The notes under the pieces are model-generated. The model did no database searches and was not told the DNA's origin. It saw nothing but the letters and a program-made list of their open reading frames with translations. This document shows, piece after piece, positions 32,085 through 56,949 of a stretch of 64,000 nucleotides of DNA. A program made the translations under genes and the position numbers. Every line of letters starts with the position of its first letter. The first letter of the stretch is position 1. The stretch is taken from assembly GCF_056746865.1 (NCBI RefSeq), contig NZ_CM163382.1; one strand, given 5' to 3'.

Positions 32085-32915
32085 TTGAAATCATTATTCA
32101 ATCGGTTAACGGGAAAAGCGGTTAGCCGGACAGCTTTCGTCGAACATCTTGGTCATGAAGTTGTACAACATCATCCAAACTGGAAAGTCATGATTTCGAC
32201 TGACCACAAATTGATGCGCATTGATACGGGTCACCAAACTGTGGAAATCACCCTTGATGATGCTTACAAACGTTATCAAGCCGCACCAGACCCGCTGGAA
32301 GAAGTGGCTGCAGATATGCTGAAACAGCTTGCAGAAATGCTGCCGACCGGGCGCTGTATTGTCCCGGTGATTAAAGAAAAAGCCTGGCTGGATACCGTTC
32401 GCCAACAGCTTAGCCAGTATGAGTCTGATCCAGAGGTCCTCAACGCCTCGCTTGATTTTGCCTGGGAAGACTTTAACGATGAGTTAATTATCCTGTTTGC
32501 TGAAGACGGTAGCGAAACCATGCGCTATCTGATGCGCTGCGAAGTGACCATTGACCGCGAACAAGCCATCAGTAATTTGAAGCAAATATTGCCGGAAGTT
32601 ACGGCTGAAATCGTTGATACAGGCGCAAACGATGGAAAAGTTGCCGTTATCTCCGCAGGGGGTACTTATGAGCCCAGTCTGATGCTCATTGACGATCTTT
32701 GGGTGCAATCACCCGATCCTGAATGCGGCGACCTGTTAGTGACCGTTCCCTCCAGAGGAAAACTGTTTTTCACCCACAATGATCAGCCAGCAAATCTCAG
32801 CGCATTACGACAGTTAACAGAACAATGCTTCCGTGAGGATGACCATCCTCTGACAACACAGATATTCATCCGCCGTAACGGTCACTTTTATCCCTGGGTA
32901 GAAACCTTGCATTAA
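32085..32915 (+). CDS. Hypothetical protein, 276 aa, function unknown
   Basis: TTG start with GAGGG 8 nt upstream, 831-nt open frame, own intrinsic terminator downstream, host-like composition. No catalytic or nucleotide-binding motif recognised. Confidence 0.65.
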   Translation: MKSLFNRLTGKAVSRTAFVEHLGHEVVQHHPNWKVMISTDHKLMRIDTGHQTVEITLDDAYKRYQAAPDPLEEVAADMLKQLAEMLPTGRCIVPVIKEKAWLDTVRQQLSQYESDPEVLNASLDFAWEDFNDELIILFAEDGSETMRYLMRCEVTIDREQAISNLKQILPEVTAEIVDTGANDGKVAVISAGGTYEPSLMLIDDLWVQSPDPECGDLLVTVPSRGKLFFTHNDQPANLSALRQLTEQCFREDDHPLTTQIFIRRNGHFYPWVETLH

Positions 32916-32978
32916 CGCAACCTCCGTCATGCTTGAAAAAGCTTGTCGGAGTATGTGATGAATGCTGCAAACTCACCG

Positions 32979-33011
32979 AAGCCGATTTTGCTACTAAATC
33001 GGCTTTTTTAT
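32979..33011 (+). terminator. Intrinsic terminator after the unassigned ORF
   Basis: AAGCCGATTTTGCTACTAAATCGGCTT followed by TTTTTATT. Confidence 0.7.
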
Positions 33012-33475
33012 TGTCACGCGGCAAATTCTGAATGCATCACATAGCCGCACTGCCGCCTGACAAAACAGTTTACCTTCTGCAAAATGGGGGGAATAATCTG
33101 ATTTTATTTGATTACAAATTAACCACTTAAACCTATTTCATGCAGAGCATTGTCAGGCGGTTGATTTTGCGTGCTTTAGCATTCACGTTTATCCAGACGA
33201 TGAAGTGAAAATTGCGTAATCCTCAGCAACCGCTGCGTAATGTCGTCTATCTTGTCGCGATCCTGGCATCCCTACATTATTTGTGGTCTGTGAAGATTAT
33301 CTCATTGCAGCCCCTCATCTTCGCAGGGCTGGCTTTACAGCTTTTAGCCTTACGTTATAAGAAGTTCCGTCGATGATGGCGCTAATTTCGTGAATTGTGC
33401 GGCTTGTTGCAAATTACACGGTGTTGAAGGTTATTTACATGTTAGCTGTTGATTATCTTCCCTGATAAGACCAGT

Positions 33476-50781: not shown

Positions 50782-51540
50782 ATGAGCCAAATTTTACTGC
50801 AACCTGCTAACGCGATGATTACGCTGGAAAACGTCAATAAATGGTATGGGCAATTCCATGTTTTGAAAAATATAAATTTAACCGTGCAACCGGGAGAACG
50901 GATCGTTCTGTGTGGCCCTTCTGGTTCCGGTAAATCGACAACCATTCGTTGTATTAATCATCTGGAAGAACATCAACAGGGACGGATCGTGGTGGATGGC
51001 ATCGAACTTAATGAAGATATCCGCAATATTGAGCGCGTCAGGCAGGAAGTGGGAATGGTCTTTCAGCATTTCAATCTCTTCCCTCATCTGACCGTTCTAC
51101 AGAACTGTACCCTGGCACCGATTTGGGTACGCAAGATGCCTAAGAAAGAGGCTGAAGATCTGGCGTTGCATTACCTTGAGCGGGTGAGAATTGCCGAACA
51201 TGCCCAGAAGTTTCCCGGACAGATTTCTGGTGGTCAGCAGCAACGCGTTGCCATAGCACGTTCACTTTGTATGAAACCAAAGATCATGCTATTTGATGAA
51301 CCTACGTCAGCGCTCGATCCGGAGATGGTGAAAGAAGTGCTGGATACGATGATTGGGCTGGCGCAGTCGGGTATGACAATGTTGTGTGTAACACATGAGA
51401 TGGGGTTTGCACGAACCGTCGCTGACAGGGTGATTTTTATGGATCGTGGGGAAATAGTGGAGCAAGCTGCACCTGATGAATTTTTTGCGCATCCTAAATC
51501 AGAGCGTACGAGGGCATTTTTATCGCAGGTAATCCATTAA
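50782..51540 (+). CDS. yhdZ: YhdZ, amino-acid ABC transporter ATP-binding protein
   Basis: 252-aa ORF with Walker [10 protein letters not shown] and ABC signature ISGGQQQR. Confidence 0.93.
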
Positions 51541-51561
51541 TTGAATGTTAGTTCGAAAAGC

Positions 51562-51589
51562 AAAAAGGCCATCCTTTCGGATGGCCTTT
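51562..51589. terminator. Bidirectional intrinsic terminator between yhdZ and the 3' end of the rrnD operon
   Basis: AAAAAGGCCATCCTTTCGGATGGCCTTT. Confidence 0.75.
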
Positions 51590-51600
51590 CGCTTGATTTG

Positions 51601-51720
51601 ATGTCTGGCAGTTCCCTACTCTCGCATGGGGAGACCCCACACTACCATCGGCGCTACGGCGTTTCACTTCTGAGTTCGGCATGGGGTCAGGTGGGACCAC
51701 CGCGCTACTGCCGCCAGACA
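51601..51720 (-). rRNA. rrfF: 5S rRNA, distal copy of rrnD
   Basis: 120-nt match to E. coli 5S rRNA on the minus strand; 5' end reads UGUCUGGCGGCAGUAGCGCGG. Confidence 0.95.
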
Positions 51721-51757
51721 AATTCTTTTCTAATCTGCCGAACTTTAACCTAAAAAG

Positions 51758-51833
51758 TGGTGCTGATACCCAGAGTCGAACTGGGGACCTCACCCTTACC
51801 AAGGGTGCGCTCTACCAACTGAGCCATATCAGC
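51758..51833 (-). tRNA. thrV: tRNA-Thr
   Basis: Reverse complement reads GCTGATATGGCTCAGTTGGTAGAGCGCACCCTTGGTAAGGGTGAGGTCCCCAGTTCGACTCTGGGTATCAGCACCA. Confidence 0.95.
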
Positions 51834-51845
51834 ACGCTAAATTTG

Positions 51846-51965
51846 ATGCCTGGCAGTTCCCTACTCTCGCATGGGGAGACCCCACACTACCATCGGCGCT
51901 ACGGCGTTTCACTTCTGAGTTCGGCATGGGGTCAGGTGGGACCACCGCGCTAAGGCCGCCAGGCA
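51846..51965 (-). rRNA. rrfD: 5S rRNA, proximal copy of rrnD
   Basis: 120-nt match to E. coli 5S rRNA; 5' end reads UGCCUGGCGGCCUUAGCGCGG. Confidence 0.95.
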
Positions 51966-52056
51966 AATTCTGTTTATCAGACCGCTTCTGCGTTCTGATT
52001 TAATCTGTATCAGGCTGAAAATCTTCTCTCATCCGCCAAAACATCTTCGGCGTTGT

Positions 52057-54961
<2,905 letters not shown>

Positions 54962-55144
54962 TCACAACCCGAAGATGTTTCTTTCGATTCATCATCGTGT
55001 TGCGAAAATTTGAGAGACTCACGAACAACTTTCGTTGTTCAGTGTTTCAATTTTCAGCTTGATCCAGATTTTTAAAGAGCAAAACTTCGCAGTGAACCTT
55101 TGCAGGTACACTCTGAAGTATTTTTTATTTAATCACTACAGAGA

Positions 55145-55220
55145 TGGTGGAGCTATGCGGGATCGAACCGCAGACCTCCTGCGTGCAAAGCAGGCGCTCT
55201 CCCAGCTGAGCTATAGCCCC
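55145..55220 (-). tRNA. alaU: tRNA-Ala (spacer tRNA)
   Basis: Reverse complement reads GGGGCTATAGCTCAGCTGGGAGAGCGCCTGCTTTGCACGCAGGAGGTCTGCGGTTCGATCCCGCATAGCTCCACCA. Confidence 0.95.
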
Positions 55221-55262
55221 ATAACATGTAGTTAAAACCTCTTCAAATTTGCCGTGCAAATT

Positions 55263-55339
<77 letters not shown>

Positions 55340-55407
55340 GTAGAGGTTTTACTGCTCATTTTCATCAGACAATCTGTGTGAGCACTGCAAAGTACGCTTC
55401 TTTAAGG

Positions 55408-56949
<1,542 letters not shown>

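What the first reader, a model, noticed from the sequence alone, without database searches (positions are those of the whole stretch)
51601..51965. The two tandem 5S rRNA genes of rrnD differ at four positions, including a compensatory helix-I base pair
Direct comparison of the two 120-nt 5S copies shows the distal copy (rrfF) starting UGUCUGGCGGCAGUAGC... and ending ...GCCAGACAU, versus the proximal copy (rrfD) starting UGCCUGGCGGCCUUAGC... and ending ...GCCAGGCAU. The U3/A118 versus C3/G118 change preserves pairing in helix I, and two adjacent bases in the 5' strand also differ. Intragenomic 5S heterogeneity in E. coli is known, so this is expected biology rather than novelty, but it is useful for distinguishing rrn operons and read mapping.
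Basis: seen in the sequence. Interest (0 to 1): 0.2.

Follow-up and report, generated by a model that had tools for sequence, protein, structure and literature searches.

The report
Two slightly different 5S genes, rrnD
The two 5S ribosomal RNA genes at the end of the E. coli rrnD operon really do differ at four bases, including a matched pair of changes that keeps a helix intact, but this is long-known, ordinary variation between ribosomal RNA gene copies.

Summary
Confirmed, with one correction. The window carries E. coli rrnD on the minus strand: 16S, tRNA-Ile, tRNA-Ala, 23S, 5S, tRNA-Thr, 5S. The two 120-nt 5S genes differ at positions 3, 12, 13 and 117, not 118; C3 pairs with G117.

The four differences are three unrelated things.
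- **U3·A117** is a compensatory pair specific to the distal copy rrfF. That copy is identical to K-12 rrfF. The pair is nearly fixed in about 5,400 complete E. coli genomes; I verified three exceptions and the ceiling is about 20 records. It is also present in the distal copy of many other Enterobacterales genera.
- **A12 versus C12** is a polymorphism shared among operons, split 4:4 in K-12.
- **U13** in the proximal copy is a common strain allele that K-12 lacks. Here it sits in a gene-conversion-like mosaic.

Across 122 distal copies from other species, the pair is C·G in 68, U·A in 51, U·G in 2 and C·A in none, with one copy unscorable. All 41 proximal copies are C·G.

The differences are not assembly errors. 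This is already-known biology of low interest.

In passing: this strain's rrnD lacks the T1 terminator and rrF small-RNA segment that K-12 has.

The parts
55408..56949 (-). 16S rRNA gene of rrnD
   Evidence: Rfam RF00177, 1576 bits; annotated as 16S in CE10 and EC31.
55263..55339 (-). tRNA-Ile(GAU), ileU equivalent
   Evidence: ARAGORN; K-12 annotation.
55145..55220 (-). tRNA-Ala(UGC), alaU equivalent
   Evidence: ARAGORN; K-12 annotation.
52057..54961 (-). 23S rRNA gene of rrnD
   Evidence: Rfam RF02541, 2867 bits.
51966..52056 (-). 23S-5S spacer. Its allele differs from that of the otherwise identical strain EC31 at 51975-51997.
51846..51965 (-). Proximal 5S rRNA gene (rrfD): C3 (51963), C12 (51954), U13 (51953), G117 (51849).
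   Evidence: Rfam 93.2 bits. Sequence. It differs from K-12 rrfD only at position 13.
51758..51833 (-). tRNA-Thr(GGU), thrV
   Evidence: ARAGORN; Rfam tRNA 70.7 bits; identical to K-12 thrV.
51721..51757 (-). thrV-rrfF spacer, unique to the distal copy. Its last bases, GAAUUUG, match the sequence in front of the proximal 5S.
51601..51720 (-). Distal 5S rRNA gene (rrfF): U3 (51718), A12 (51709), G13 (51708), A117 (51604).
   Evidence: Rfam 90.2 bits. 120/120 identical to K-12 rrfF.
51596..51613 (-). Single copy of the 18-nt repeat AACTGCCAGACATCAAAT. K-12 has two copies, which bracket terminator T1 and the rrF small-RNA segment; that segment is absent here.
   Evidence: Alignment to K-12; PMC8144298.
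51563..51590 (-). T2-type intrinsic terminator of rrnD. It is bidirectional and also ends yhdZ on the + strand.
   Evidence: Terminator scan; fold -24.9 kcal/mol, z = -5.1.

Best explanation
These are the two functional paralogous 5S rRNA genes of E. coli rrnD, rrfD and rrfF. They are co-transcribed with 16S, 23S and three tRNAs and cut out of one precursor. Their four differences have three separate origins.

1. **U3·A117 in rrfF.** This is an old compensatory double substitution, specific to the distal copy, of the C3·G117 pair near the open end of helix I. It most likely arose through the cheap U·G wobble intermediate. Two forces keep it. Selection for pairing removes C·A. And both sites lie only about 12-14 nt inside the roughly 140-nt block of homology that the distal copy shares with other 5S genes, so gene conversion rarely reaches them.

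2. **A12 versus C12.** This is a loop-A polymorphism shared among the seven operons and shuffled by gene conversion.

3. **U13 in rrfD.** This is a common strain-level loop-A allele. In this genome it lies in a conversion-like patch together with the adjacent 23S-5S spacer.

All four changes are expected to be neutral or nearly neutral for ribosome function.

Shown here: sequence identity, pairing, population frequencies, cross-species covariation, and the mosaic pattern. Inferred: the neutrality, the wobble route, and the homology-edge explanation for persistence.
For: **Identity of the locus.** Gene order and flanks match rrnD.

**K-12 paralogues.** A12 is in rrfA, B, E and F; C12 is in rrfC, D, G and H. 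U3/A117 occurs only in rrfF, and U13 in none.

**E. coli population.**
- The rrfF 5' haplotype is exact in 4,977 of 5,463 records.
- A117 is exact in 4,942 of 5,462.
- Four genomes deliberately chosen as non-exact matches still carry U3/A117, with private changes elsewhere.
- A synthetic rrfF with C3 matches exactly in one real record, and that record has A117, a C·A mismatch.
- G117 in the rrfF context occurs in at most 17 records, all with the long terminator form. Two were checked and both are U3·G117.
- Of the 4 records in the exact band for the short form, the two I could examine are not rrfF with G117: one is rrnG and one is a two-piece join. The other two were not examined.

**Cross-species.** Among 122 distal copies: C·G 68, U·A 51, U·G 2, C·A 0, and one unscorable. 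All 41 proximal copies are C·G. U·A is found in Escherichia, Salmonella, Citrobacter, Enterobacter, Leclercia, Lelliottia, Pluralibacter, Trabulsiella and others.

**Pair counts.** Pair 3-117 accounts for 14 of the 17 double-sided changes in the molecule, with no unpaired cell.

**Energies.** C·G -50.7, U·A -48.6, U·G -48.0, C·A -43.5 kcal/mol.

**Loop A.** Columns 12-14 are the least conserved in the alignment. Positions 12-13 are the same in both copies in 30 of 41 species.

**U13.**
- A C12/U13 5S exists in 4,109 of 5,463 records.
- It sits at rrfD in about half of an evenly spaced sample.
- The window equals strain EC31 for 51,952 nt, and all 21 differences lie in the rrn operon, starting at 5S position 13 and the adjacent spacer.

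**Literature.** Gene conversion between E. coli rrn operons, including the rrnD 23S-5S spacer, and the roughly 50-bp homology requirement are documented in PMC8022953.
Against: - No expression or ribosome-incorporation data were available, so function of both copies is inferred from conservation only.
- The homology-edge explanation is an inference. The near-fixation of U·A in E. coli and its presence in many genera could also reflect selection for U·A itself.
No phylogeny was built, so single versus multiple origins of U·A (for example in Hafnia, Dickeya and Limnobaculum) is unresolved.
- The EC31 comparison could partly reflect mis-assignment of rrn variants during assembly of either genome.
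- The estimate for U13 at rrfD rests on 26 interpretable rows of a split query.
Confidence: 0.85

Rival explanations
1. The differences are sequencing or assembly errors from a collapsed or mis-polished repeat.
For: rrn operons are classic problem regions for assembly. The only differences between the window and its nearest complete genome, EC31, lie inside the rrn operon, which could partly be an assembly effect in one of the two records.
Against: - U3, A12 and A117 of rrfF are exact in about 4,950 independent complete genomes, including K-12 MG1655.
- The whole 521-nt distal segment is 100% identical in at least 14 independent assemblies.
- C12/U13 at rrfD is seen in CE10, muskdeer13-4 and, judged from the calibrated split-query score, BL21-Gold, and in about half of the sample.
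- The same U·A pair recurs in other genera.
Confidence: 0.02
2. rrfF encodes a functionally specialised 5S rRNA, and U3·A117 is selected for its own sake. The weaker helix-I end might tune RNase E processing of the distal precursor, or mark a distinct ribosome subpopulation or an extra-ribosomal role.
For: - U·A is restricted to the distal copy: 51 of 122 distal copies against 0 of 41 proximal copies.
- It is shared by many Enterobacteriaceae genera.
- It is over 99% fixed in E. coli, even though interior positions are homogenised between copies.
- PMC7283268 notes that the extra 5S gene has prompted ideas of extra-ribosomal roles, and that 5S gene deletions are unexpectedly costly.
Against: - C·G to U·A is an isosteric Watson-Crick swap costing only about 2 kcal/mol.
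- Sixty-eight of 122 species keep C·G in the distal copy.
- Viable E. coli strains carry U·G there.
- The same paper (PMC7283268) shows that cells without free 5S rRNA are viable, which argues against essential extra-ribosomal functions.
- No functional data exist.
Confidence: 0.08
3. rrfF is a redundant, decaying extra copy (an incipient pseudogene), and its differences reflect relaxed constraint.
For: - It is the only 5S gene without its own 16S and 23S partners.
- Some strains carry private rrfF substitutions: C35U, U87C and C97U.
- Rare U·G and C·A states exist.
Against: - 116 of 120 positions are identical to the proximal copy.
- The gene scores 90.2 bits against the Rfam model.
- The one helix change is compensated.
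- The tRNA-Thr/distal-5S arrangement occurs in many Enterobacterales genera, with C·A never seen among 122 species.
- The private changes came from a sample deliberately chosen for non-exact matches, and they are loop or G·U-compatible changes.
Confidence: 0.04

Closest known systems
E. coli K-12 MG1655 rrfF (b3272), the distal 5S gene of rrnD
   Same: 120/120 identical, including U3, A12, G13 and A117. The upstream thrV and spacer are the same.
   Different: K-12 follows rrfF with terminator T1, the rrF small-RNA/TLR segment, a second copy of the 18-nt repeat, and then T2. The window goes straight to T2.
E. coli K-12 MG1655 rrfD (b3274), the proximal 5S gene of rrnD
   Same: 119/120 identical, in the same position between 23S and thrV.
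   Different: Position 13 is U here and G in K-12. There is also a 1-nt length difference in the 23S-5S spacer. Of the strains whose rrfD I read directly, CE10 and muskdeer13-4 share C12/U13; O145 RM12522-C8, PapRG-04-4 and K-12 have C12/G13; and PD4 has A12/G13. BL21-Gold scored as an exact C12/U13 match in the split query.
Classical 5S RNA sequence heterogeneity of E. coli. From my own knowledge: Brownlee, Sanger and Barrell 1967-68; Jarry and Rosset 1971; Duester and Holmes 1980 on the rrnD distal end. None of these could be retrieved here.
   Same: Micro-heterogeneity at positions 12 and 13, and the existence of two 5S genes flanking tRNA-Thr in rrnD.
   Different: Nothing substantive. The present window is simply another strain's allele combination.
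Distal 5S genes after tRNA-Thr in other Enterobacterales (for example Salmonella enterica, Citrobacter, Enterobacter and Leclercia)
   Same: Same tRNA-Thr-then-5S arrangement. Same U3·A117 pair in the distal copy, with C3·G117 in the proximal copy.
   Different: Loop-A bases 12-14 differ by genus. Erwiniaceae, Yersiniaceae, Kosakonia, Buttiauxella and others keep C·G in the distal copy.

Membership tests
5S rRNA (Rfam RF00001) | Scores above the curated gathering threshold of the covariance model over its full length | tested here: met
   93.2 bits (proximal) and 90.2 bits (distal) against a threshold of 38; model positions 1-120 matched, not truncated.
5S rRNA (Rfam RF00001) | Three-way-junction secondary structure with helix I closing the molecule | tested here: met
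   Helix I (1-10 paired with 110-119) is intact in the MFE folds of both copies. 99.1% of cells are paired over 30 canonical pairs in 63 sequences.
5S rRNA (Rfam RF00001) | Located downstream of 23S in an rrn operon and co-transcribed | tested here: met
   Gene order by Rfam and ARAGORN. No promoter-like site was found in 51400-52100, and there is a single terminator after the distal copy. Co-transcription itself is inferred.
5S rRNA (Rfam RF00001) | Incorporated into the 50S subunit with proteins L5, L18 and L25 | not testable with these tools
   Needs RNA or ribosome data.
E. coli rrnD operon (rrsD-ileU-alaU-rrlD-rrfD-thrV-rrfF) | Gene order with tRNA-Thr between two 5S genes | tested here: met
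   The same arrangement covers at least 80% of the query in 5,382 of 5,426 complete genomes.
E. coli rrnD operon (rrsD-ileU-alaU-rrlD-rrfD-thrV-rrfF) | Chromosomal context between yhdZ and yrdA | tested here: met
   Annotations of CE10, K-12 and EC31. The window is identical to EC31 in the flanks.
Compensatory base-pair substitution | The two sites are partners in the accepted structure, and both states are standard pairs | tested here: met
   C3·G117 and U3·A117. The Infernal alignment pairs them, and the folds agree.
Compensatory base-pair substitution | Covariation across homologues, with unpaired combinations rare or absent | tested here: met
   CG 46, UA 14, UG 3 and unpaired 0 among 63 distinct sequences. 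Among 122 distal copies: 68, 51, 2 and 0, plus one unscorable. In E. coli, one C·A in about 5,400 genomes.
Dual-terminator rrn end with rrF/TLR small-RNA gene (rrnA, rrnB and rrnD of K-12; PMC8144298) | T1 terminator, about 100-nt TLR segment and a second copy of the 18-nt repeat between the 5S gene and T2 | tested here: not met
   The roughly 168-nt segment present in K-12 is absent. The window has one repeat copy and only T2. The short junction is exact in 1,175 records and the long K-12-type junction in 2,525.

The most novel reading that the evidence does not exclude
The U3·A117 pair is a selected, copy-specific signature. It is confined to the 5S gene that follows tRNA-Thr, it has been kept across many Enterobacteriaceae genera, and it is over 99% fixed in E. 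coli, even though gene conversion homogenises the rest of the gene. On this reading it marks a 5S variant with a distinct maturation pathway or role. The alternative is that it merely survives at the edge of the homology block.
Probability: 0.07. Interest if true: 0.45.

Novelty: already known. Interest (0 to 1): 0.1.

Why it matters
There is little to learn about mechanism. It is a textbook example of intragenomic rRNA micro-heterogeneity, with one compensatory pair in a 5S helix.

Practical value:
- U3/A117 is a reliable marker of the distal rrnD 5S copy in E. coli and relatives.
- Positions 12 and 13 are not operon-specific markers, because they vary between strains and move by gene conversion. 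They should not be used to tell operons apart across strains.

The small extra insight from this work is evolutionary. The distal-copy signature is shared with other genera (Salmonella, Citrobacter, Enterobacter and others). Only the U·G intermediate occurs at appreciable frequency, as thermodynamics predicts.

Tried and rejected
- **Assembly or sequencing error.** Rejected on population counts.
- **Reading all four differences as one event.** Rejected after comparison with all eight K-12 rrf genes.
- **Split query tying U13 to rrnD.** It worked only partly. Junction trimming makes exact matches score 98.0%, which I calibrated with muskdeer13-4. Records hit on the minus strand were joined to the wrong 5S piece and were discarded, leaving 26 usable rows.
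- **Short-junction query.** It is confounded by the rrnG terminator, which is similar, so only the exact-match band and the chromosomal positions of hits were used.
- **The apparent 'G117 short-form rrfF' hit.** It turned out to be rrnG carrying an rrnD-like T2.
- **CE10 as the source genome.** It is not: identity is about 98.6%, with indels. EC31 is the closest genome found.
- **Older literature.** Searches for the original 5S heterogeneity papers and for Duester and Holmes 1980 found nothing in the held library. Those citations rest on my own knowledge.
- **Not attempted.** Protein, structure and RNA-model tools were not used, because the feature is a well-modelled RNA gene.

Full report
**What is at the coordinates**

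Rfam and ARAGORN place a complete rrn operon on the minus strand:
- 16S at 55408-56949
- tRNA-Ile at 55263-55339
- tRNA-Ala at 55145-55220
- 23S at 52057-54961
- a 5S gene at 51846-51965
- tRNA-Thr(GGU) at 51758-51833
- a second 5S gene at 51601-51720

A T2-type intrinsic terminator follows at 51563-51590. After it comes the convergent gene yhdZ.

This order and these flanks (yhdZ and yrdA) are those of E. coli rrnD, annotated in K-12 as rrsD-ileU-alaU-rrlD-rrfD-thrV-rrfF. The same distal segment covers at least 80% of the query in 5,382 of 5,426 complete E. coli genomes. At least 14 independent assemblies match it at 100%.

**The observation**

Read on the transcribed strand, the two 120-nt genes differ at exactly four positions:
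- position 3: C proximal, U distal
- position 12: C proximal, A distal
- position 13: U proximal, G distal
- position 117: G proximal, A distal

The finding's quoted strings are right. Its '118' should be 117: helix I is 1-10 paired with 110-119, so position 3 pairs with 117. Positions 12 and 13 lie in loop A, not in the helix.

Both copies fold with an intact helix I, at -50.7 and -48.6 kcal/mol. Infernal aligns U3:A117 as a pair. In a simulation, four random substitutions hit partner positions and kept a standard pair with P about 0.01.

**The four differences are three different things**

Comparison with all eight K-12 5S genes shows:
- The distal copy is 120/120 identical to K-12 rrfF.
- U3/A117 occurs only in rrfF.
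- Position 12 splits 4:4 among operons: A in rrfA, B, E and F; C in rrfC, D, G and H.
- U13 is in no K-12 gene, so the window's proximal copy differs from K-12 rrfD at that one base.

K-12 rrfD and rrfF therefore differ at three positions. The fourth difference is a strain allele.

**Population data from 5,426 complete E. coli genomes**

I used queries shorter than 100 nt, so that the '>=99%' identity band means an exact match.

- The rrfF-specific 5' haplotype (spacer plus U3/A12/G13) is exact in 4,977 of 5,463 records.
- The A117 3' end is exact in 4,942 of 5,462 records.
- Four genomes chosen because they were not exact still carry U3 and A117. Their mismatches are private changes: a spacer base, C35U, U87C and C97U.
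- A synthetic rrfF with C3 has one genuine exact match. It is a K-12-lineage mouse-gut isolate that keeps A117, so it carries a C·A mismatch.
- G117 in the rrfF context occurs in at most 17 records, all of the long terminator form. The two examined, strain C and PG20180170, are U3·G117 wobble pairs.
- Four records fell in the exact band for G117 in the short form. One is rrnG and one is a two-piece join; the other two were not examined.

So U·A is more than 99% fixed at rrfF. U·G is rare, and C·A is nearly absent.

U13 behaves differently. A C12/U13 5S exists somewhere in 4,109 of 5,463 records. In an evenly spaced sample it sits at rrfD in about half of the interpretable genomes: 13 of 26. 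Among strains whose rrfD I read directly, positions 12/13 are CU, CG or AG.

**Other species**

I ran one scan of species-representative genomes for the tRNA-Thr 3' end followed by a 5S start.

| Copy | C·G | U·A | U·G | C·A | unscorable |
|---|---|---|---|---|---|
| Distal (122) | 68 | 51 | 2 | 0 | 1 |
| Proximal, same loci (41) | 41 | 0 | 0 | 0 | 0 |

(Counts.)

- The two U·G cases are Citrobacter sp. FP75 and Enterobacter mori.
- U·A is found in Escherichia, Salmonella, Citrobacter, Enterobacter, Klebsiella indica, Leclercia, Lelliottia, Pluralibacter, Trabulsiella, Phytobacter, Pseudocitrobacter, Superficieibacter and Silvania. It also occurs in Hafnia, Dickeya undicola and Limnobaculum.
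- Pantoea, Erwinia, Tatumella, Rahnella, Kosakonia, Buttiauxella and others have C·G.

On a gap-free alignment of 63 distinct sequences, pair 3-117 is CG 46, UA 14, UG 3 and unpaired 0. It supplies 14 of the 17 double-sided changes in the whole molecule.

Columns 12-14 are the least conserved in the alignment. Positions 12-13 are identical between the two copies in 30 of 41 species, consistent with homogenisation of the gene interior.

**Mechanism**

Shown:
- The pair is compensated and covaries.
- Only the wobble intermediate is seen at appreciable frequency.
- This matches the energies: C·G -50.7, U·A -48.6, U·G -48.0, C·A -43.5 kcal/mol.

Inferred: why the signature persists in one copy while the interior is shuffled.
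- The distal copy shares only about 140 nt of homology with other 5S genes (self-match 51590-51729 against 51835-51975).
- Positions 3 and 117 therefore lie about 12-14 nt from the edges of that block.
- Efficient RecA-mediated conversion needs about 50 bp of homology, and conversions among E. coli rrn operons are well documented (PMC8022953).
- The examined G117 (U·G) cases are in genomes where rrfF is followed by the long T1-rrF-T2 segment. That segment is more than 98% identical among rrnA, B and D (PMC8144298), so it extends homology past position 117.

U13 looks conversion-borne. The window is base-for-base identical to strain EC31 over 1-51952. All 21 differences from EC31 lie inside the rrn operon:
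- 5S position 13
- the adjacent 23S-5S spacer, 51975-51997
- two 23S sites
- a cluster in 16S at about nt 1002-1038, plus one more 16S site

**Comparison with what is known**

- The existence of an extra 5S gene in rrnD is standard knowledge (PMC4696680; PMC7283268).
- The K-12 reference carries the same rrfF sequence.
- Micro-heterogeneity at positions 12 and 13 of E. coli 5S RNA, and the sequence of the rrnD distal end, were described decades ago. This rests on my own knowledge of Brownlee, Sanger and Barrell; Jarry and Rosset; and Duester and Holmes 1980. None of these is held in the library.

The finding is therefore already known. Its practical use for telling copies apart holds for U3/A117 but not for positions 12 and 13.

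**Verdict**

- The feature is ordinary. Interest is 0.1.
- The only mildly novel residue is that the distal-copy U·A signature is shared across many genera. I give about a 7% chance that this reflects specific selection rather than limited conversion.

Noticed in passing
window 51560-51615 (minus strand): This strain's rrnD ends directly in the T2-type terminator. It lacks the roughly 168-nt segment present in K-12: terminator T1, the rrF small-RNA/TLR gene reported to bind Hfq and CsrA (PMC8144298), and the second copy of the 18-nt repeat AACTGCCAGACATCAAAT. The pattern looks like a deletion between the direct repeats. The short junction is exact in 1,175 records and the K-12-type long junction in 2,525, of about 5,460.
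   Followed up: partly
window 51953-56476: The window is identical to E. coli EC31 (NZ_CP056036.1) over 1-51952. All 21 differences from EC31 fall inside the rrn operon: 5S position 13, the 23S-5S spacer at 51975-51997, 23S at 52750 and 54698, and 16S at 55912-55948 and 56476. This is a gene-conversion mosaic, or an rrn variant mis-assignment in one of the assemblies.
   Followed up: partly
other E. coli genomes: L133 (NZ_CP043199.1), L139 (NZ_CP043187.1), L140 (NZ_CP029371.1): Rare rrfF states exist. PG20180060, a K-12-lineage mouse-gut isolate, has a C3·A117 mismatch. PG20180170 (same lineage) and strain C have U3·G117 wobble pairs. All three are in genomes with the long T1/rrF downstream segment.
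   Followed up: yes
window 51563-51590: The rrnD terminator hairpin is symmetric and scores as a terminator on both strands. It probably also terminates the convergent yhdZ gene.
   Followed up: partly
window 54969-55077 (minus strand): An Rfam StyR-44 hit (124.9 bits) lies immediately upstream of 23S in the 16S-23S spacer.
   Followed up: no
window about 1799-2496 and about 32085-33376: By transfer of the EC31 annotation, an IS1B copy lies between dcuC and nanR. A hypothetical gene plus a yedZ-like pseudogene fragment lie between accB and acuI. CE10 instead carries an IS4 next to degS and a sugar-utilisation gene cluster between accC and yhdT.
   Followed up: no
L138 (NZ_CP172134.1, strain GF131): In this strain the rrnG 5S (next to kgtP) carries C12/U13, and its downstream terminator is identical over the 40 nt compared to the rrnD T2 sequence. 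This is another sign of sequence exchange between the ends of different rrn operons.
   Followed up: partly
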